Shown one piece after another: positions 1-7,598 of a DNA stretch of 15,511 bases; the stretch's first letter is position 1, and each line of letters opens with the position of its first letter. Origin of the DNA: a virus; the UHGV virus genome UHGV-1637942, one strand, 5' to 3'. The notes under the pieces were generated by a model that had not been told where the DNA came from, did not search any database, and saw only the letters and a list, made by a program, of their open reading frames with translations. A program made the translations under genes and the position numbers.

Positions 1-2337
1 AATATTGCTACTGGCGGCTATCCAGTACAGCGCCGTACCAAGATAACGCGCGCTGGTTTCAACCTGCCTGATATCGATAATCCGCTTTTCCGAGAACCAG
101 AACTCAAACTGCACCGTCGGGTCATATACAGCCAGTTTCGGGACCGCTGTTATCTGAAAATACCCTGGTATCAGTTCAATAGTGACAGGCGCTGCCGGTG
201 CCGCAATCCGGAACGATACCGATGCCGGATCGCCCTGCTGCCCCCACGCATTTACCGCCCGGACCGTCAGCGTGTAACGCCCCAGCGCCAGTTGCCTGAA
301 GCGGTATGTGGTTTCCGTCGTCCGGGCCATGCTGACCAGCCGCTCACTGCCGTCGTCCGCTGCCACGGTAAGGCGAAGCAGGAAGCTCACGCCCTTCACC
401 ACCTTCGGCGTGTCCCATCGCGCCAGCACCTGATATTCCCCGCTGTCTGCGGTGACTTCGGCGGTCAGGTGCTGCACCGCTGGCGGCGTGACACCATTCA
501 CCGTGCCGCTCTGGTCGCCGTCAAAGTGCGCCCCGTTATCCACGATGGCTTCTTTTTCCGGTACATGCTGCACGGCGGTGATGGCATACGTACCGTCATC
601 GTTCTCCCGGATACTCACACAGCGGAACAGGCGCTGGCGCAGCGTCGGCAGCTTCAGCCCCCACACGCTGTATTCGGCAACGCCGTCAGGAACCCGGCTC
701 ACTTTCACCTTCACGCCGTCGGTGACGGACTGAACCTCCACGCTCACCGGATTACCCTGCCCGTCAACCAGGCTTATCAGCGTGGTGCCGGAGGATGGCA
801 GCGTGATTTCACGGTCGAGCGTCAGCGTCCGGGTCTGGCTGTTCACCGCCAGCACACGACCACCGGTGCTGATACCGGCATAGTCATCATCACAGATTTC
901 AATGACATCGCCCGGTACATGGCGAAGCCCTTCTGCGCCCACGCTGAAGTCCACGGTCTGCGTTTCCAGCAGTTCCGTTTTAATCAGCCACAGCCCGGCG
1001 CGGTGTGCCTGCCCCCGGCTGGTACAGCCAAAGGCATCCATCTTCGTGACGTTACGACCGTAACGGGCAATGGCCTGCGTATCTTCAACAAGCTCTGTCG
1101 CCGTCTCCCAGCCGTTGTTCGGGTCAATCCAGTTCACCTCAACGGCATTATGGCGGTCCTTCAGGGCGCTGAAGCTGTAGCGGAACGGCGCGCCATCATC
1201 CGGCATCACCACATTACTGCGGTTATAGGTCCACACCTTATCTGATGGTCGGTCCTGCACGAACGTCAGCGTCTGCCCGTTCCATACCGGCATACAGCGC
1301 ATCGCCGAGCAGAAATCACTGAGAACATCCCACGCCTTACGCTGTTGTGCCAGGTACGCATTAAAGGTCATCCGCGGCTCGGTCCCCCCGAAACCATCCG
1401 GGACCGTCTGGTCGCAGTACTGCCCGATGGCATACAGCGCCCACTTGTCCACATCCGCCGCCCCCAGACGTTTTCCCATGCCGTAGCGCGGGTGAGTCAG
1501 CATGTCCCACAGACACCAGGCCGGATTGTTGCTGTATGCCGGTTTCAGACTGCCGTCCCAGATACCACTGTACGTGCGTTTTTCCGGGTCATAGTTTGAC
1601 GGCACCTGGATGATGCGACCGCGGATATGGTAGTTCACCGTCATCTGCTGGCCGCCGAACTGCTCCGCATCCACCTGCAGCCCCACAATGGCCGTGTTCG
1701 GGTAGCACTGTTTCACATCGATGATTTCGGTGTATGACGACCACAGCGTCTTATTCTGCAGCTGGTCCGTGGTGCTGTCCGCCGTCTCCCTGACCATCCG
1801 GATGTTAAAGGGCCGGGGAGGCAGATTATCCAGAATCACCGAGGCCAGGAACTGCGAGGTGGTCTTGCCGTTAATGGTGACATCCTTTTCCGTCACCCAG
1901 CGGCCATTACGCTGTAACTGAATCAGAATCCGGACAGAGGAAGGATTACGGTCGCCCTTTGACGTGGTCTGCACCAGTGACTGCACCCCGAAGGTAACCC
2001 GCAGGCGGTCAATGTTCGCGGACGTAATGGTGCGCGTCACCGGTTTTGCCTTCGTCACTTCCACGCCCAGTCCGGTTTCAGCTCCGGAGGACTCAAAGCC
2101 TTCCGGTGGTGTCTGCTCCTGCTCCCCGGCACGCCAGACCGCGGTCACACCGTGTATCACGGGATTACCGTCCGTGTCCGTCAGCGGGGTTTTGTTCACC
2201 AGAATACTCTGCAGTCCCTTCACCGGACCTTCTATCGGTCCCTCACCAATCGCATCAATCACACTCATCATCTGCGTGGATTTGAGATTATCCTTCGCCT
2301 CACGAGGCGTGTGTGCCTTACCGCCACCTTTTCCCAT
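1..2337 (-). CDS. J: Tail tip attachment / host-specificity protein J (central tail fibre), N-terminal 779 codons; the 3' end lies beyond position 1
   Basis: Minus-strand frame is open from ATG (plus-strand CAT at 2335-2337) to the window edge; it is absent from the ORF track because no stop falls inside the window. My translation starts [39 protein letters not shown] and ends [16 protein letters not shown] at position 1, recognisable as lambda gpJ. SD-like GGGGAAGG lies 6-8 nt upstream. Confidence 0.9.
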
Positions 2338-2443
2338 ACAGCCTTCCCCTGAATAAATTAACCGCCACTTGCCATTCCGTACAGAAGTCGGATATCCTTC
2401 GCCCGAAAAGCATGAAACACATTTCTGCCATGCTAAAGAGAAA

Positions 2444-2475
2444 CCCCGGTATCAGCAGATACCGGGGTTTTCTTT
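2444..2475. terminator. Perfect 10-bp inverted repeat CCCCGGTATC / GATACCGGGG with a 4-nt loop, flanked by an A-run upstream and TTTTCTTTC downstream; candidate bidirectional intrinsic terminator or protein-binding palindrome
   Basis: Read directly: aaaCCCCGGTATCagcaGATACCGGGGttttctttc (stem 2444-2453 / 2458-2467). The complementary strand has the same hairpin followed by TTTCTCTTT. Confidence 0.45.
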
Positions 2476-2542
2476 CATGCCCACCGATAATCCTGTTGGT
2501 TAAAACCGGTAATGGCATAAAAATTCTGAATATCTTCACATT

Positions 2543-2570
2543 TTCACACACTGACTGTGGCGCGTATAAT
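2543..2570 (+). promoter_or_regulatory. Sigma70-like promoter on the plus strand: -35 TTCACA (2543-2548), 16-nt spacer, -10 TATAAT (2565-2570), with an AT-rich upstream tract
   Basis: Read directly: atcttcacatTTTCACAcactgactgtggcgcgTATAATttctctgcg. Perfect -10 consensus, 5/6 match at -35, spacer 16 nt. Points away from J and towards the 3' end of I, antisense to the late operon. Confidence 0.5.
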
Positions 2571-2576
2571 TTCTCT

Positions 2577-2680
2577 GCGTTAATTTTTTTGTCGTGATAT
2601 AAGAATAATTCCTTACACTTAATCTTCGTAACTCTCCCGCAGTTCCTGTCCGCGATCACTGCGGGATTTTTTTATTCTTT
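2577..2680 (+). ncRNA. Candidate small non-coding RNA of about 100 nt, antisense to the I-J intercistronic region of the late operon; family unknown
   Basis: Bracketed by the promoter (TSS predicted near 2577) and the intrinsic terminator at 2635-2680. No ATG-initiated ORF in any plus-strand frame in this interval. Contains a C/U-rich stretch (CCUUACACUUAAUCUUCGUAACUCUCCC) before the terminator hairpin. Confidence 0.4.
2635..2680 (+). terminator. Rho-independent terminator on the plus strand: 9-bp stem TCCCGCAGT / ACTGCGGGA, 14-nt loop, then TTTTTTTATTCTTT
   Basis: Read directly: TCCCGCAGTtcctgtccgcgatcACTGCGGGAtttttttattcttt. Lies immediately 3' of the I stop codon on the opposite strand (convergent). 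Confidence 0.55.
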
Positions 2681-3361
2681 TTACCCCTGCCGCCCGATAA
2701 CCACGACCTTTCCGCCCCCGCCTTCATCACGGGTGCTGATGTCCTGGGATATACGGCGGGAGCCAACCAGCATTTCCCCGTAAGGCACCGGCATCGGGTT
2801 CCCCTGGGCAATCATGTTATCCAGCGAGGAAAAGTACGTGTTCTGTCTGCCGTTATCCGTTGCGCGGTAATCCGGTGTTTTTGCCTTCGGGGCCAGCATC
2901 TGGGCCACTCCGCCCAGTATCATGCTGGCACCCAGTGAAAACAGCATCGTGGTGGCAGAAAAACTACCGGCACTCAGGGCTGTACCCCATAACGCCATCG
3001 AGCCTCCGGCCGTGAAGAAAGAGCCCACGATGGCTGCCGCCCCCAGCACAATCTGCAGTCCACCCTTTCCGGCCCCGGCCAGTCGCGGCACAATGTGGAT
3101 GACCGTTCCCTCACCCAGCTGTTCGTGAAGACGGGCGTACACCGCCTCCGGTGCCGTGTCATAACCGGCAATACGTATCTGGTACCAGCCTTCGTTCATC
3201 TGACGGCGAAAGCCCGGCATCTGCATCGACAGGGCGCGAATGGCTTCCGCTGCCGTGTTCACATACAGGCTGAGGCGGCGGCCAAATCGTTGTAAATCCC
3301 CGTGAAGGCAGATGCGTGCCAGTGGCGGTGACGCCAGACTGAATGCGTTCGTCGTTGCCAT
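2681..3361 (-). CDS. I: Tail tip assembly protein I
   Basis: ORF of 226 aa, MATTNAFSLASPPLARICLHGDLQRFGRR...GKVVVIGRQG, recognisable as lambda gpI. ATG at 3359-3361. Its 5' end overlaps the 3' end of K by about 100 nt in another frame, as in lambda. Confidence 0.93.
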   Translation of the reverse strand: MATTNAFSLASPPLARICLHGDLQRFGRRLSLYVNTAAEAIRALSMQMPGFRRQMNEGWYQIRIAGYDTAPEAVYARLHEQLGEGTVIHIVPRLAGAGKGGLQIVLGAAAIVGSFFTAGGSMALWGTALSAGSFSATTMLFSLGASMILGGVAQMLAPKAKTPDYRATDNGRQNTYFSSLDNMIAQGNPMPVPYGEMLVGSRRISQDISTRDEGGGGKVVVIGRQG

Positions 3362-4002
3362 TTTTCGGAATACCTCTCCCGTTTACTCAGTTGTTCAGGC
3401 AGATGGTGAAGCAGCTCACCGTTGCCGCAGTAAATGGCGGCATGGTTCGGTACCGAAGCACCAAAGCAGCACAGCAGAATATCGCCCGCCTGTGCAGAGG
3501 ACAGGGGCACCCGGTAAAAGCCGGTGACCGCCATATTGTCCAGGTAAAGGTTCTGGCCGTTGCGCCACCAGTCATCCTCGCGATGAAAATCCGGCATTTC
3601 AGTCCCCGCCAGATGATAAGCATCCCGGAACAGCGTGTAACAGTCCGTCACCCCGTGCTCAAAGCGCCGTCCTGTCAGATGTGGCACACAGCGGAATTTG
3701 TGAATGTCACCCCGGCAGACCAGCCACCAGGGCAGTGCGCTTTTTATCTGCAGCCGCCGGTCAGCCTCGCTCAGCCAGGGCAGCCCACCGGGATGACTGT
3801 GGACCAGTGCCACAATCTCCCCCTGCATCTCTGCCCGCAGCCAGTCTTCCGGTGCGATACGAAAATACGCCTCCGGCTCTGCAGAAATATTCACACAAGG
3901 GATATACCACTCCCCCTCCGGCGTGCTTATCACGAAGCCGCACGACTCCGCAGGCGCACACCGCCGGGCATGCGCCAGAATCGCTGATTCAGTCTGTGTC
4001 AT
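3259..4002 (-). CDS. K: Tail tip assembly protein K (JAB/MPN metalloprotease-like domain plus NlpC/P60 domain)
   Basis: ORF frame 3259..4263; I place the start at MTQTESAILAHARRC (ATG at 4000-4002), 10 nt after the L stop. Contains HSHPGGLPWLSEAD, which matches the JAMM pattern H-x-H-x7-S-x2-D, and a C-terminal DCYTL...HAAIY Cys/His pair typical of NlpC/P60. The start codon is uncertain (weak SD). Confidence 0.85.
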   Translation of the reverse strand: MTQTESAILAHARRCAPAESCGFVISTPEGEWYIPCVNISAEPEAYFRIAPEDWLRAEMQGEIVALVHSHPGGLPWLSEADRRLQIKSALPWWLVCRGDIHKFRCVPHLTGRRFEHGVTDCYTLFRDAYHLAGTEMPDFHREDDWWRNGQNLYLDNMAVTGFYRVPLSSAQAGDILLCCFGASVPNHAAIYCGNGELLHHLPEQLSKRERYSEKWQRRTHSVWRHRHWHASAFTGIYNDLAAASACM

Positions 4003-4012
4003 AAACCGGGAT

Positions 4013-4711
4013 TTACTGCGAAAGTTTATTAATGGAAAGGAAACCGCCAAAATTGCCGACATTCCTGCGCAGTTCACACCCGCGCATGCACTTGCTGCAT
4101 CTGTCCTTACGGATATCCGTGGTGGGGTTGTCGAACTCATCCGCCACCGCAGGACCGTTATACCCGCATTCATCTCCCCGGTAATCCCACATACAGGTGT
4201 TCGCCAGCATGATGCGACCGGGAAACAGCGCCCCATCCGTCTCGGTCGGTGTGGCCAGCACAAACGAGGCCGTCATGGCTGTCAGCTGCGACATCTGCTC
4301 CACCACCCAGCGGTCACTCAGCTCCTGCTCCGGGTCCGCCTCCGGATTGCCCGCAACGAAATTCACCGCATCCAGAAAACGGGCATACACCCGGCGGCGG
4401 ACCACCGTGGCCCCCACCAGACTCTGCAGGTCTTCCGCCATCCCGGTGACCAGACCGAACAGATTGGACACCGTCAGCGACGGTCTGGCACTGCTGCCCT
4501 TCCCGCTCATCTCAAAACCGCTGCCGTCAATCGGGTATGCCTGATATTGCCGCCCCTGCCAGGTGACCGGCTCCCCTTTTTCATTCAGCTCATTACAGAA
4601 AAAATACCGCTCACCGCCCTGTACCGTCAGGTCGATTTCCCAGAGTACCACCCGCGGTGACTGCTCTGACTTAACCGACTCGTTCAGACTTTCTTCGCGA
4701 ATATCCTGCAT
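4013..4711 (-). CDS. L: Tail tip protein L
   Basis: ORF of 232 aa, MQDIREESLNESVKSEQSPRVVLWEIDLTV..., recognisable as lambda gpL, with a C-terminal cysteine cluster (C-x..EC..RCSKCMRGC). Start overlaps the M stop (TGATG). Confidence 0.93.
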   Translation of the reverse strand: MQDIREESLNESVKSEQSPRVVLWEIDLTVQGGERYFFCNELNEKGEPVTWQGRQYQAYPIDGSGFEMSGKGSSARPSLTVSNLFGLVTGMAEDLQSLVGATVVRRRVYARFLDAVNFVAGNPEADPEQELSDRWVVEQMSQLTAMTASFVLATPTETDGALFPGRIMLANTCMWDYRGDECGYNGPAVADEFDNPTTDIRKDRCSKCMRGCELRRNVGNFGGFLSINKLSQ

Positions 4712-5040: not shown

Positions 5041-7598
5041 CCACCGCTCCCTGATAACATACCGCCATCACGCAACTGCAGCCGGAGTTCATCCTGTGCC
5101 CCCTTGCGGGCCATCTCATACACCGCTTTCATCAGCTGCGGCCCTGCCCGCCCGTTGGGGCCGTCGTTCTGAATCACCACGTGATTGTTCTGATTAAAAT
5201 TAATGCCTTCCGCCCGCCGCATCTGCGCCGGACTTCCGGCACCGCCGACATAACCACCTTCCGCATAGCCCCGCATCAGGCGGTACAGGTTCCCGACACC
5301 AATCCGGCTGGTTGCCTCCTTCGTGAAGACAAACTCCCCGCGGTGGACAATCCCCGCTGGCTCATATTTGCCGCCGGTTCCCGTAAATCCTCCGGTCGCA
5401 AAATGGAATTTCGCCGCAGCTGCCTGAATGGCTGTACCGCCTGACGCGGATGCGCCGCCACCAACAGCCCCGCCAATAGCGCTGCCGATACTCCCGACAA
5501 TCCCCACCATTGCCTGCTTAAGCAGAATTTCTGTCATCATGGACAGCACGGAACGGGTGAAGCTGCGCCAGTTCTGCTCACTGCCGGTCAGCATCGCCGC
5601 CATATTCTGTGCAATACCATCAAAGGTCTGCGTGGCAGCACTTTTTACCTGCGACATACTGTCCGTGGCGCTCTCTTCCCACTCACTCCAGCCGGACTTC
5701 AGGCCTGCCATCCAGCTCCCGCGAAGCTGGTCTTCAGCCACCCAGGTCTTTTTCTGCTCTGACATGACGTTATTCAGCGCCAGCGGATTATCGCCATACT
5801 GTTCCTTCAGGCGCTGTTCCGTGGCTTCCCGTTCTGCCTGCCGGTCAGTCAGCCCCCGGCTTTTCGCATCAATGGCGGCCCGTTTTGCCCGTTGCTGCTG
5901 TGCGAATTTATCCGCCTGCTGCGCCAGCGCGTTCAGGTGCTCCTGATACGTAACCTTGTCGCCAAGTGCAGCCAGCTGGCGTTTGTACTCCAGCGTCTCA
6001 TCTTTATGCGCCAGCAGGGATTTCTCCTGTGCAGACAGCTGGCGACGTTGCGCCGCCTCCTCCAGTACCGCGAACTGACTCTCCGCCTTCCACAAATCCC
6101 GGCGCTGCTGGCTGATTTTCTCATTTGCTCCGGCATGCTTCTCCAGCGTCCGGAGTTCTGCCTGAAGCGTCAGCAGGGCAGCATGAGCACTGTCTTCCTG
6201 ACGATCGCCCGCAGACACCTTCACGCCGGACTGTTTCGGCTTTTTCAGCGTCGCTTCATAATCCTTTTTCGCCGCCGCCATCAGCGTGTTGTAATCCGCC
6301 TGCAGGATTTTCCCGTCTTTCAGTGCCTTGTTCAGTTCTTCCTGACGGGCGGTATATTTCTCCAGCGGCGTCTGCAGCCGTTCGTAAGCCTTCTGCGCCT
6401 CTTCGGTATATTTCAGCCGTGACGCTTCGGTATCGCTCTGCTGCTGCGCATTTTTGTCCTGTTGAGTCTGCTGCTCAGCCTTCTTTCGGGCGGCTTCAAG
6501 CGCAAGACGGGCCTTTTCACGATCATCCCAGTAACGCGCCCGCGCTTCATCGTTAACAAAATAATCATCCTTGCGCAGATTCCAGATGTCGTCTGCTTTC
6601 TTAAACGCAGCCTCTGCCTTAATCAGCATCTCCTGCGCGGTATCAGGACGACCAATATCCAGCACCGCATCCCACATGGATTTGAATGCCCGTGCGGTCC
6701 TGTCTGCCCAGGTCTCCAGCGTGCCCATGTTCTCTTTCAGGCGGCGGGTCTGGTCATCAAACCCTTTCGTTGCGGCCTCGTTCGCCGCCTGCAATGCCCC
6801 GGCTTCATCGCCGGAACGCTGCAACTGAGCAACATACGCAATCTGCTCCGCCGTCACGTTATGGAACTGCTTCGCCATCGCAATCAGCCCCGACGTCGGG
6901 TCAGTGGTCAGTTTTCCGAAAGCCTCTGCAACCTTGTCCACCTCCACACCGGATGCAGAAGCAAAACGCGCGACACTCTGGTTGATGGCATCAAACTGTT
7001 CACCACCACGCACACCGGCATTCACCATGGCTGCCAGTGACTCACTCGCCTGGTTAAACGTCAGCCCTGCGGCCTGTCCGGCTCTGGAGAGCGTCAGCAT
7101 GCGATCGGCAGTCAGTCCGGACTGATTACCGGAAAGAACCAGGGTTTTATTAAACGCTGAAAGCGTGGAATCTCCCTGGTACCAGGCGTACACCAGCGCA
7201 CCTGTCGCCACCGCCAGCGAGGTGACCCCGACCATCGGCAGGGTGATCGCACCGGCAAGCCCCCTGAACATGGGGATCATCCCGCCGAAGGAGTCCTTAA
7301 CCTGACCACCCTGTTGCAGCAGGATCAGCCACGGGCTTTGCCCGCCTGCAAGCTGCGTGGCCACGTCGGTGAACTGTGCAGGCAGCATACGCATGGCGGC
7401 TTTATACTGCCCGACGGAAATCCCCGCTTTCTGTGCAGCCAGCGCCTGTCGGTTCATTGACTGTTCAACGACTGCCGCTGTTTTTTTCGCATCACTTTCC
7501 GTACCGGAAAAATGACGCCTGACTCTGGCCATCTGCTCGTCAAATCTGGCCGCATCCAGACTTAAATCAACGACCAGATCGCCTACCGGTTCAGCCAT
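5037..7598 (-). CDS. H: Tail tape measure protein H
   Basis: ORF of 853 aa, MAEPVGDLVVDLSLDAARFDEQ..., with the Ala/Gly-rich hydrophobic segment and coiled-coil-like K/E/Q/A-rich centre of lambda gpH. ATG at 7596-7598 overlaps the end of the T frame by 8 nt. Confidence 0.95.
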   Translation of the reverse strand: MAEPVGDLVVDLSLDAARFDEQMARVRRHFSGTESDAKKTAAVVEQSMNRQALAAQKAGISVGQYKAAMRMLPAQFTDVATQLAGGQSPWLILLQQGGQVKDSFGGMIPMFRGLAGAITLPMVGVTSLAVATGALVYAWYQGDSTLSAFNKTLVLSGNQSGLTADRMLTLSRAGQAAGLTFNQASESLAAMVNAGVRGGEQFDAINQSVARFASASGVEVDKVAEAFGKLTTDPTSGLIAMAKQFHNVTAEQIAYVAQLQRSGDEAGALQAANEAATKGFDDQTRRLKENMGTLETWADRTARAFKSMWDAVLDIGRPDTAQEMLIKAEAAFKKADDIWNLRKDDYFVNDEARARYWDDREKARLALEAARKKAEQQTQQDKNAQQQSDTEASRLKYTEEAQKAYERLQTPLEKYTARQEELNKALKDGKILQADYNTLMAAAKKDYEATLKKPKQSGVKVSAGDRQEDSAHAALLTLQAELRTLEKHAGANEKISQQRRDLWKAESQFAVLEEAAQRRQLSAQEKSLLAHKDETLEYKRQLAALGDKVTYQEHLNALAQQADKFAQQQRAKRAAIDAKSRGLTDRQAEREATEQRLKEQYGDNPLALNNVMSEQKKTWVAEDQLRGSWMAGLKSGWSEWEESATDSMSQVKSAATQTFDGIAQNMAAMLTGSEQNWRSFTRSVLSMMTEILLKQAMVGIVGSIGSAIGGAVGGGASASGGTAIQAAAAKFHFATGGFTGTGGKYEPAGIVHRGEFVFTKEATSRIGVGNLYRLMRGYAEGGYVGGAGSPAQMRRAEGINFNQNNHVVIQNDGPNGRAGPQLMKAVYEMARKGAQDELRLQLRDGGMLSGSGG

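What the first reader, a model, noticed from the sequence alone, without database searches (positions are those of the whole stretch)
2577..2680. The candidate RNA is perfectly cis-antisense to the late mRNA just 3' of I and has a C/U-rich single-stranded segment
Any late transcript reading from I into J must pass through 2680-2577 on the minus strand, so the plus-strand RNA would form a perfect duplex of about 100 bp with it. That could create an RNase III substrate or cause transcriptional interference, selectively lowering expression of J (needed in few copies) relative to upstream tail genes. Separately, the segment CCUUACACUUAAUCUUCGUAACUCUCCC ahead of the terminator is C/U-rich and predicted unpaired, the kind of seed that base-pairs with purine-rich ribosome-binding sites in trans. 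Both roles are inference.
Basis: inference. Interest (0 to 1): 0.55.

Follow-up and report, generated by a model that had tools for sequence, protein, structure and literature searches.

The report
Known prophage small RNA, PasB family
The candidate RNA between tail genes I and J is a divergent copy of PasB/EcOnc22-24, a prophage small RNA already detected in pathogenic E. coli that depends on Hfq and pairs with other mRNAs, so it is largely already explained, and its antisense position to the late mRNA has no evidence of function.

Summary
The window is a lambda-like late operon on the minus strand. I is at 2681-3361 and J starts at 2337. The 343-bp I-J gap carries a plus-strand cassette: a near-consensus promoter (TTCACA-16-TATAAT), an RNA of about 97 nt (2577-2673) and an intrinsic terminator (CCCGCAG/CUGCGGG plus U7).

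This cassette belongs to the PasB family. PasB is an 83-nt, Hfq-dependent RNA of EPEC E2348/69 with 37 RIL-seq partners, and it sits at the same site. The Sakai RNAs EcOnc22/23/24 (Hfq-CRAC, about 85 nt on northern blot) also map to I-J gaps that hold a family allele. The window allele is about 74% identical to PasB. It is present at 99% identity or more in 613 complete E. coli records.

In my re-analysis, six of PasB's RIL-seq partners pair best with the homologous region. The trans-seed idea is therefore supported by homology.

The cis-antisense geometry is real. However, the RNA overlaps neither the I coding sequence nor the J ribosome-binding site, and nothing supports a role in tuning J.

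Side findings are a conserved CRP-like box upstream, tandem arrays of 3-4 cassettes in other prophages, and a sodC gene replacing the promoter in O157-type copies.

The parts
2525..2540 (+). Conserved CRP-like box TCTGA-N6-TCACA, centred at -44.5 from the predicted +1
   Evidence: It is the only match with at most 1 mismatch to TGTGA-N6-TCACA in the window. Both half-sites are invariant in 129 of 147 family copies, the spacer has 5 variants, and the adjacent -35 region varies.
2543..2570 (+). Sigma-70 promoter: TTCACA, 16-bp spacer, TATAAT
   Evidence: It matches 11 of 12 positions. The -10 hexamer is TATAAT, AATAAT, TATCAT or CATAAT in 127 of 148 copies. The block is nearly identical to the PasB promoter of E2348/69.
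2577..2673 (+). Predicted small RNA, a divergent allele of the PasB/EcOnc22-24 family (about 97 nt; 5' end uncertain by about 15 nt)
   Evidence: It aligns with PasB of E2348/69 at the same I-J site. It is 74% identical to PasB and to the Sakai allele. Twenty of the 23 nt of the PasB northern probe match it.
2601..2609 (+). A-rich tract AAGAAUAAU, three consecutive A-R-N triplets (candidate contact for the distal face of Hfq)
   Evidence: The 58 alleles keep an A-R-N run averaging 3.4 triplets, against 1.5 in shuffled sequences, even though the sequences differ. Its function is inferred.
2611..2638 (+).
   Evidence: Composition is, core invariance, accessibility. The homologous region of PasB is the best pairing site for 6 of 6 RIL-seq partners tested.
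2636..2673 (+). Intrinsic terminator: stem CCCGCAG/CUGCGGG, variable loop, U7 tail
   Evidence: The stem is invariant in all alleles and the loops vary.
2681..3361 (-). Tail assembly gene I; its stop codon lies about 8 nt beyond the RNA's 3' end
   Evidence: Pfam Lambda_tail_I, E = 6e-17.
1..2337 (-). 5' part of tail tip gene J, which runs off the window
   Evidence: Pfam GpJ domains. The N-terminus reads [20 protein letters not shown] (read).
2441..2476 (.). Second strong hairpin with U-tracts on both strands, in the left half of the I-J gap (not part of the sRNA cassette)
   Evidence: The fold of 2400-2482 has z = -5.9. The left module 2338-2513 is nearly invariant in 39 copies.

Best explanation
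Window 2577-2673 (+) encodes a divergent allele of the PasB/EcOnc22-24 family of lambdoid-prophage small RNAs.

It is transcribed in the lysogen from its own sigma-70 promoter and ends at an intrinsic terminator just before the I stop codon. The promoter may be assisted by a factor that binds the conserved TCTGA-N6-TCACA box, with CRP the leading candidate.

Like its characterised relatives, it is expected to be stabilised by Hfq through the U-tail, and probably through the A-R-N tract as well. It is expected to act in trans, pairing through the accessible pyrimidine-rich stretch. That stretch has an invariant core, AAUCUUC, flanked by the allele-specific UCCUUACAC. Targets would be purine-rich sites in host and accessory mRNAs, including start-codon or Shine-Dalgarno regions and sites inside coding sequences.

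Complementarity to the late mRNA follows from the cassette sitting in the I-J moron site.

Shown here: identity of site, promoter and terminator with PasB; family-wide conservation; and the seed location in PasB inferred from published RIL-seq partners. Inferred: expression, Hfq dependence and the targets of this particular allele.
For: PasB coordinates and northern probe come from Table S6. PasB lies 6 nt after the I stop codon, antisense, between I and J of prophage PP6. The alignment shows a near-identical promoter and terminator with a diverged body.

PasB shows Hfq-dependent stability, was validated by northern blot and has 37 interactions. EcOnc22/23/24 are Hfq-CRAC peaks in the J-I gaps of Sp15, Sp14 and Sp11, give an RNA of about 85 nt on northern blot, and are destabilised without hfq. 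Identical family alleles sit 122-124 nt from the start of each peak, consistent with the coordinate shift of about +137-146 between genome versions, which I measured on AgvB1.

I recovered 58 alleles, all at the same site, with the core UUAAUCUUC and the terminator conserved. The core is accessible.

The six RIL-seq partners tested (yhhX, ler, fabR/yijD, tolC 5'UTR, ydbJ 5'UTR, rplX) all pair best with PasB positions 35-66. For yhhX (-28.2 kcal/mol) and ler (-22.9) the energy is at or below that of at most 1 of 120 control fragments.
Against: There are no expression data for this allele. For the window allele, predicted pairing with PasB's partners is weak or shifts to another part of the RNA, so its targets may differ. 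Part of the proposed seed is predicted to be paired. No Rfam model exists to score membership. Invariance of the core and stem in the IMG/VR set was partly forced by my search pattern, although the BLAST-derived set shows the same thing. No biological function of PasB or EcOnc22 is known.
Confidence: 0.75

Rival explanations
1. Cis-antisense regulator. During induction the RNA pairs with its perfect complement in the I-J spacer of the late transcript. That would create an RNase III substrate or cause transcriptional interference, lowering J relative to I.
For: Complementarity over the full 97 nt is certain from the geometry. The cassette sits next to the I stop codon in every allele. The late-strand spacer is highly structured, with z = -4.2. 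Lambda OOP RNA is a precedent for antisense-directed RNase III cleavage (my own knowledge).
Against: The RNA overlaps neither the I coding sequence nor the J ribosome-binding site; J's start codon is about 240 nt away in this gap. Family members are abundant Hfq-bound RNAs with many trans partners in uninduced lysogens. O157-type copies lack the promoter yet keep the same I-J arrangement. Some prophages carry 3-4 different cassettes in tandem, which fits a toolbox of trans regulators better than a single cis switch. Antiterminated late transcription should overwhelm a small convergent promoter (inference).
Confidence: 0.1
2. Sponge or anti-sRNA, in the manner of AgvB and AsxR. [quoted passage not shown]
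For: An A-R-N tract is conserved by composition in all alleles. The design is a variable 5' body on a conserved 3' terminator, as in the AgvB/AsxR group. One PasB chimera involves the pasA region.
Against: There is no sequence or Rfam relationship to AgvB or AsxR, and the genomic site differs. PasB's RIL-seq partners are overwhelmingly coding sequences and 5' UTRs, not sRNAs.
Confidence: 0.1
3. Mainly an insulator. The terminator, with a leftover promoter, stops plus-strand transcription from morons such as sodC from running antisense into the tail operon, and the RNA itself has no function.
For: In O157-type copies sodC lies directly upstream and the cassette has lost its promoter. A second bidirectional hairpin lies in the same gap.
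Against: The promoter, the box and the unpaired core are conserved well beyond what a terminator needs. Relatives are abundant, Hfq-bound and have many partners.
Confidence: 0.05

Closest known systems
PasB (EPEC E2348/69, prophage PP6; Pearl Mizrahi et al. 2021, PMC8550237; Zhu, Shabalina and Storz 2026 preprint)
   Same: The site and orientation are the same: between I and J, antisense, ending a few nt beyond the I stop codon. The promoter block is almost the same, the terminator stem and U-tail are identical, the core AUCUUC is shared, and there is a pyrimidine-rich stretch ahead of the terminator.
   Different: Overall identity is only about 74%. The body differs in its A-rich tract and in the flanks of the seed (UCCUUACAC-UU-AAUCUUCGUAAC here, UCCUUCAC-AUU-GAUCUUCAUUUG in PasB). 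The gap is 343 bp here and 240 bp in E2348/69. The preprint describes PasB variants as differing by only a few nucleotides. Its BLAST settings (word size 28, more than 75% coverage) probably missed this allele.
EcOnc22/23/24 (EHEC Sakai prophages Sp15, Sp14, Sp11; Tree et al. 2014, PMC4104026)
   Same: They are Hfq-crosslinked plus-strand RNAs in the J-I gaps, about 85 nt on northern blot and destabilised without hfq. The gaps hold a family allele with the same box, core and terminator.
   Different: The Sakai allele is 74% identical to the window allele. The link to PasB is my inference from coordinates and is not stated in the papers I read. The target is listed as unknown.
AgvB/AsxR anti-sRNAs (Rfam RF02702/RF02703)
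   Same: They are short prophage-encoded Hfq-binding RNAs with a variable 5' region on a conserved 3' terminator and with A-R-N motifs.
   Different: They lie in the moron site downstream of the PR' promoter, not in the tail operon. The sequence and promoter are unrelated and there is no Rfam hit here.
Lambda OOP RNA (cis-antisense to the 3' end of cII; my own knowledge)
   Same: It is a short phage RNA with its own promoter and terminator, convergent with and fully complementary to a phage mRNA.
   Different: OOP overlaps a coding region and directs RNase III cleavage of cII mRNA. This RNA overlaps only an intergenic spacer, and no cleavage is known.

Membership tests
PasB / EcOnc22-24 prophage sRNA family | Encoded in the I-J gap of a lambdoid tail operon, antisense to the late genes, with its 3' end next to the I stop codon | tested here: met
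   Window I is at 2681-3361(-), J starts at 2337(-), and the RNA is at 2577-2673(+). The layout is the same in E2348/69, Sakai and 15 other loci.
PasB / EcOnc22-24 prophage sRNA family | Sequence homology to PasB across promoter, core and terminator | tested here: met
   The promoter block is near-identical, the terminator stem and U-tail are identical, 20 of 23 nt of the northern probe match, and overall identity is 74%. BLAST links the alleles.
PasB / EcOnc22-24 prophage sRNA family | Expressed as an RNA of about 83-85 nt whose stability depends on Hfq | not testable with these tools
   This is shown for PasB and EcOnc22 only. For this allele only the promoter, terminator and U7 tail can be read.
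PasB / EcOnc22-24 prophage sRNA family | Single-stranded seed just upstream of the terminator that pairs with mRNAs in trans | tested here: inconclusive
   The core at 2623-2628 is predicted accessible. The homologous PasB region is the best pairing site for 6 of 6 RIL-seq partners tested. The window allele pairs only weakly with those partners.
AgvB/AsxR anti-sRNA family (Rfam RF02702/RF02703) | Match to the Rfam covariance model, and location downstream of the PR' promoter | tested here: not met
   There is no match at the gathering threshold or at E up to 10. The same scan finds AgvB in Sakai. The sequences are unrelated.
OOP-type cis-antisense phage RNA | Overlap with the coding region or ribosome-binding site of the regulated gene | tested here: not met
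   The RNA's 3' end at about 2673 stops before the I stop codon at 2681-2683. Its 5' end at 2577 is about 240 nt from the J start codon at 2337.
HnrS (EcOnc10-12) | Same locus or same sequence | tested here: not met
   EcOnc11 lies after the endopeptidase gene in the lysis region of Sp10, and its sequence is unrelated.

The most novel reading that the evidence does not exclude
The RNA has two roles tied to the prophage life cycle. In the lysogen it is an Hfq-dependent trans regulator of host genes, possibly under CRP control. On induction, the abundant late transcript carries a perfect 97-nt complement. That complement would titrate the RNA, releasing its host targets, and the resulting duplex would be cut by RNase III, separating the fates of the I and J messages. 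The I-J site would then be a selected feature of a modular cassette whose seed varies between alleles and which some prophages carry in arrays of 3-4.
Probability: 0.1. Interest if true: 0.6.

Novelty: new member of a known kind. Interest (0 to 1): 0.3.

Why it matters
The RNA itself is not new. It belongs to a family detected twice by Hfq-based methods (2014 and 2021) whose function is still unknown.

This window adds three things. First, the family is much more diverse than published. I found at least 58 alleles with an invariant core and variable flanks, and this allele is one of the commonest, present in about 11% of complete E. coli genomes and in E. albertii. Second, EcOnc22-24 and PasB appear to be the same family. 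Third, the promoter carries a conserved bipartite box that suggests regulated, possibly catabolite-dependent, expression.

These points give concrete handles for working out what a very widespread prophage RNA does. The cis-antisense idea would be interesting only if experiments showed it.

Tried and rejected
- **Rfam.** Scans at gathering and permissive thresholds gave no credible family.
- **HnrS (EcOnc10-12).** It lies at a different locus and has an unrelated sequence.
- **AgvB/AsxR membership.** Rejected.
- **Coding potential of the gap.** The mechanical ORFs at 2318-2659(-) and 2313-2597(+) are not credible, because alleles differ by indels that are not multiples of three.
- **Covariation.** The terminator stem never varies, and no consensus 5' hairpin emerged, so structure beyond the terminator is unsupported.
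- **Genome contigs pattern scan.** Of 30 hits only the two E. albertii contigs carry family alleles; the 28 in unrelated taxa I take to be chance matches.
- **Full-length duplex folding.** It produced unrealistic long loops, so I replaced it with windowed duplexes plus a background set.
- **Target prediction for the window allele.** Tested against PasB's partners only, and inconclusive.
- **Late-strand fold.** It showed no link between the PasB-complementary region and the J ribosome-binding site.
- **The 60-bp lambda I-J gap.** It has a small hairpin but no cassette.

Full report
**1. What is in the window**

The window is a lambdoid late operon on the minus strand. The ORF at 2681-3361 matches Pfam Lambda_tail_I. 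The frame from 2337 to the left end matches the GpJ domains. The ORF at 3259-4263 is the K-type JAB/NlpC peptidase.

I and J are separated by 343 bp (2338-2680). In phage lambda the same gap is 60 bp and holds only a small hairpin. The gap is therefore an insertion site.

On the plus strand the gap contains these elements:
- a promoter, TTCACA (2543-2548), 16-bp spacer, TATAAT (2565-2570), matching 11 of 12 positions;
- a likely start at G2577;
- a terminator with stem CCCGCAG (2636-2642) / CUGCGGG (2659-2665) followed by seven T (2667-2673).

The predicted RNA is 97 nt. Its fold is modestly more stable than shuffled sequences (z = -2.1), mostly because of the terminator.

**2. Check of the observation**

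The antisense geometry is correct. Any I-to-J transcript carries the complement of 2577-2673. The RNA should end near 2673, not 2680, so it stops before the I stop codon at 2681-2683.

The flagged segment CCUUACACUUAAUCUUCGUAACUCUCCC lies at 2611-2638 and is 75% pyrimidine. It is only partly single-stranded in the thermodynamic model:
- 2623-2628 have unpaired probability 0.83-0.97;
- 2612-2618 pair in a weak 5' hairpin;
- 2629-2632 pair in a weak long-range helix.

**3. Identity**

Rfam gives no match. The literature does.

Pearl Mizrahi et al. 2021 (PMC8550237) defined PasB in EPEC E2348/69. It is 83 nt, lies at NC_011601.1 1466343 to 1466261 on the minus strand in prophage PP6, and was probed with AATCCCGCAGTGATCGCGGAGCT. 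That position is 6 nt after the stop codon of the tail assembly gene I, antisense, between I and J.

Aligned with the window, the promoter block and the terminator stem plus U-tail are nearly identical. The body has diverged. Overall identity is 74%, and 20 of the 23 probe nucleotides match.

PasB was validated by northern blot, depends on Hfq for stability, is higher under the non-activating condition, and has 37 RIL-seq interactions.

**4. Link to EcOnc22-24**

Tree et al. 2014 (PMC4104026) list EcOnc22/23/24 as homologous Hfq-CRAC peaks on the plus strand in Sakai prophages Sp15, Sp14 and Sp11. EcOnc22 gave an RNA of about 85 nt on northern blot that was destabilised without hfq.

All three peaks fall in the J-I gaps of those prophages. 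Each gap holds an identical family allele starting 122-124 nt after the published start of the peak. The published coordinates refer to an older genome version. AgvB1, located by Rfam, is shifted by about +137-146 between versions. With that shift the peaks land inside the RNA.

I conclude that EcOnc22-24 and PasB are one family. I did not find this link stated in the papers I read. A 2021 review lists the EcOnc22 target as unknown.

**5. Family anatomy**

The gap sequence occurs in 1,669 of 5,426 complete E. coli genomes. The RNA region alone occurs in 1,780 genomes, and the window allele is present at 99% identity or more in 613 records. Canonical PasB and its one-nucleotide variants account for about 925 records.

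From E. coli genomes and IMG/VR contigs I recovered 58 distinct alleles, all at the same site. The window allele is the commonest, with 30 of 147 copies, and it is also present unchanged in E. albertii.

Features of the alleles:
- The conserved parts are the upstream box and the -10 hexamer, the 5' GCGUUA, an A-rich tract, the core UUAAUCUUC, and the terminator stem.
- The A-rich tract forms runs of A-R-N triplets averaging 3.4, against 1.5 in shuffled sequences.
- The flanks of the core and the terminator loop vary in a mosaic pattern.
- RNAalifold finds only the terminator stem as consensus structure, with no covariation because the stem never changes.
- One caveat: my IMG/VR search pattern required AATCTT and the stem. 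The BLAST-derived set of 17 loci shows the same invariance.

Zhu, Shabalina and Storz (2026 preprint) describe PasB variants as differing by only a few nucleotides, and they place the seed just upstream of the terminator. Their search settings would not seed on this allele. The allelic diversity shown here appears to be new, while the family is not.

**6. How it most likely works**

I re-analysed the published PasB RIL-seq partners. I fetched six partner fragments and computed windowed duplexes.

- For EPEC PasB all six partners pair best with sRNA positions 35-66, ACUCCUUCACAUUGAUCUUCAUUUGUCUGUCC.
- Among 120 control fragments only 12% start at position 35 or later, and most prefer the G/C-rich 5' end.
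- No control fragment (0 of 120) reached yhhX's energy (-28.2 kcal/mol), and 1 of 120 reached ler's (-22.9).
- By eye, UCUUCAUUUG is a perfect 10-nt complement of the tolC start-codon region. UCCUUCACAU is a perfect 10-nt complement of the yijD Shine-Dalgarno region at the fabR-yijD junction. UGAUCUUCA is a perfect 9-nt complement just upstream of the ydbJ Shine-Dalgarno sequence.

It supports a classical Hfq-dependent trans mechanism for the family.

For the window allele the same partners pair weakly, or through other parts of the RNA. Alleles probably have partly different target sets. This is inference.

**7. The cis-antisense idea**

Nothing in the sequence supports a role in setting J levels.
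- The RNA overlaps only spacer. J's start codon is about 240 nt from the RNA's 5' end.
- A fold of the late-strand spacer shows no interaction between the complementary region and the J ribosome-binding site.
- O157-type copies have lost the promoter to a sodC insertion but keep the same tail-gene layout.
- Other prophages carry several different cassettes in tandem.

The available interaction data come from uninduced cells. The idea is therefore untested, not disproved. A reverse version, in which the late mRNA titrates the sRNA on induction, is equally open.

**8. Side observations**

- A box TCTGA-N6-TCACA at 2525-2540 is the only near-match to the CRP core in the window. Its half-sites are invariant in 129 of 147 copies, its spacer has five variants, and the neighbouring -35 region varies freely.
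- The box is centred at -44.5 from the predicted start, which is 3 bp further than the canonical class II position (my own knowledge). The CRP assignment is therefore tentative. It would fit PasB being higher under the non-activating condition than the activating one. My recollection that these conditions are LB and glucose-containing DMEM is not from the retrieved text.
- The left half of the gap holds a very stable bidirectional hairpin of unknown role.

**9. Verdict**

The feature is real and already known in kind. It is a divergent allele of the PasB/EcOnc22-24 prophage sRNA family. The trans-seed reading is supported by homology. The cis reading is unsupported. Interest is modest.

Noticed in passing
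window 2525-2540 (+): A conserved bipartite box TCTGA-N6-TCACA lies upstream of the sRNA promoter and resembles a CRP site. Its half-sites are invariant in 129 of 147 family copies, the spacer has 5 variants, and the -35 region between box and -10 is highly variable. It is centred at -44.5 from the predicted +1, 3 bp beyond the canonical class II position. The PasB papers do not mention it.
   Followed up: partly
L155(-) 6107-6724; L076(-) 79-694; L156(-) 1477-2291; L084(-) 700-1515: Some IMG/VR prophages carry tandem arrays of 3-4 cassettes with a period of about 220-235 bp; in L155, the one whose flanks I read, the array fills the I-J gap. Each cassette has the box, a terminator about 100 nt downstream and, in L155, a visible -10 hexamer. 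The RNA bodies differ, and some cassettes use a different terminator (CTCCCGT...ACGGGAG). The 2026 preprint reports only widely separated duplicate copies.
   Followed up: partly
L003 1-700 (E. coli O157:H7 ECP19-198) and 18 of 147 family copies: In O157-type copies a sodC (Cu/Zn superoxide dismutase) moron with its own terminator lies directly upstream, on the sRNA strand. It replaces the box and the -10 hexamer (TCCTCC instead of TATAAT). These copies may be silent or made only by read-through.
   Followed up: partly
window 2338-2513, hairpin 2441-2470: The left half of the I-J gap is a separate, nearly invariant module with a very stable hairpin (AAACCCCGGUAUC/GAUACCGGGGUUU, z = -5.9) that has U-tracts on both strands. 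A weak plus-strand promoter-like site (TTGCCA-18-TATCCT, 2369-2398) precedes it. It could be a bidirectional terminator, a second small RNA or a moron remnant. The 240-bp gaps (E2348/69, Sakai) instead have the hairpin CAGGCACC...GGTGCCTG with the U-tract on the late strand.
   Followed up: partly
L179 746-805 (phage lambda 15445-15504): The 60-bp I-J gap of lambda contains a small hairpin (ACCGCC-NNNN-GGCGGU) followed by a U-tract on the late strand. It looks like a terminator between I and J.
   Followed up: no
L028(-) 1272-1368 (Escherichia albertii NBRC 107761): The exact 97-nt window allele is present in E. albertii, and a second, sodC-type allele is on another contig (L044). The family therefore extends beyond E. 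coli.
   Followed up: partly
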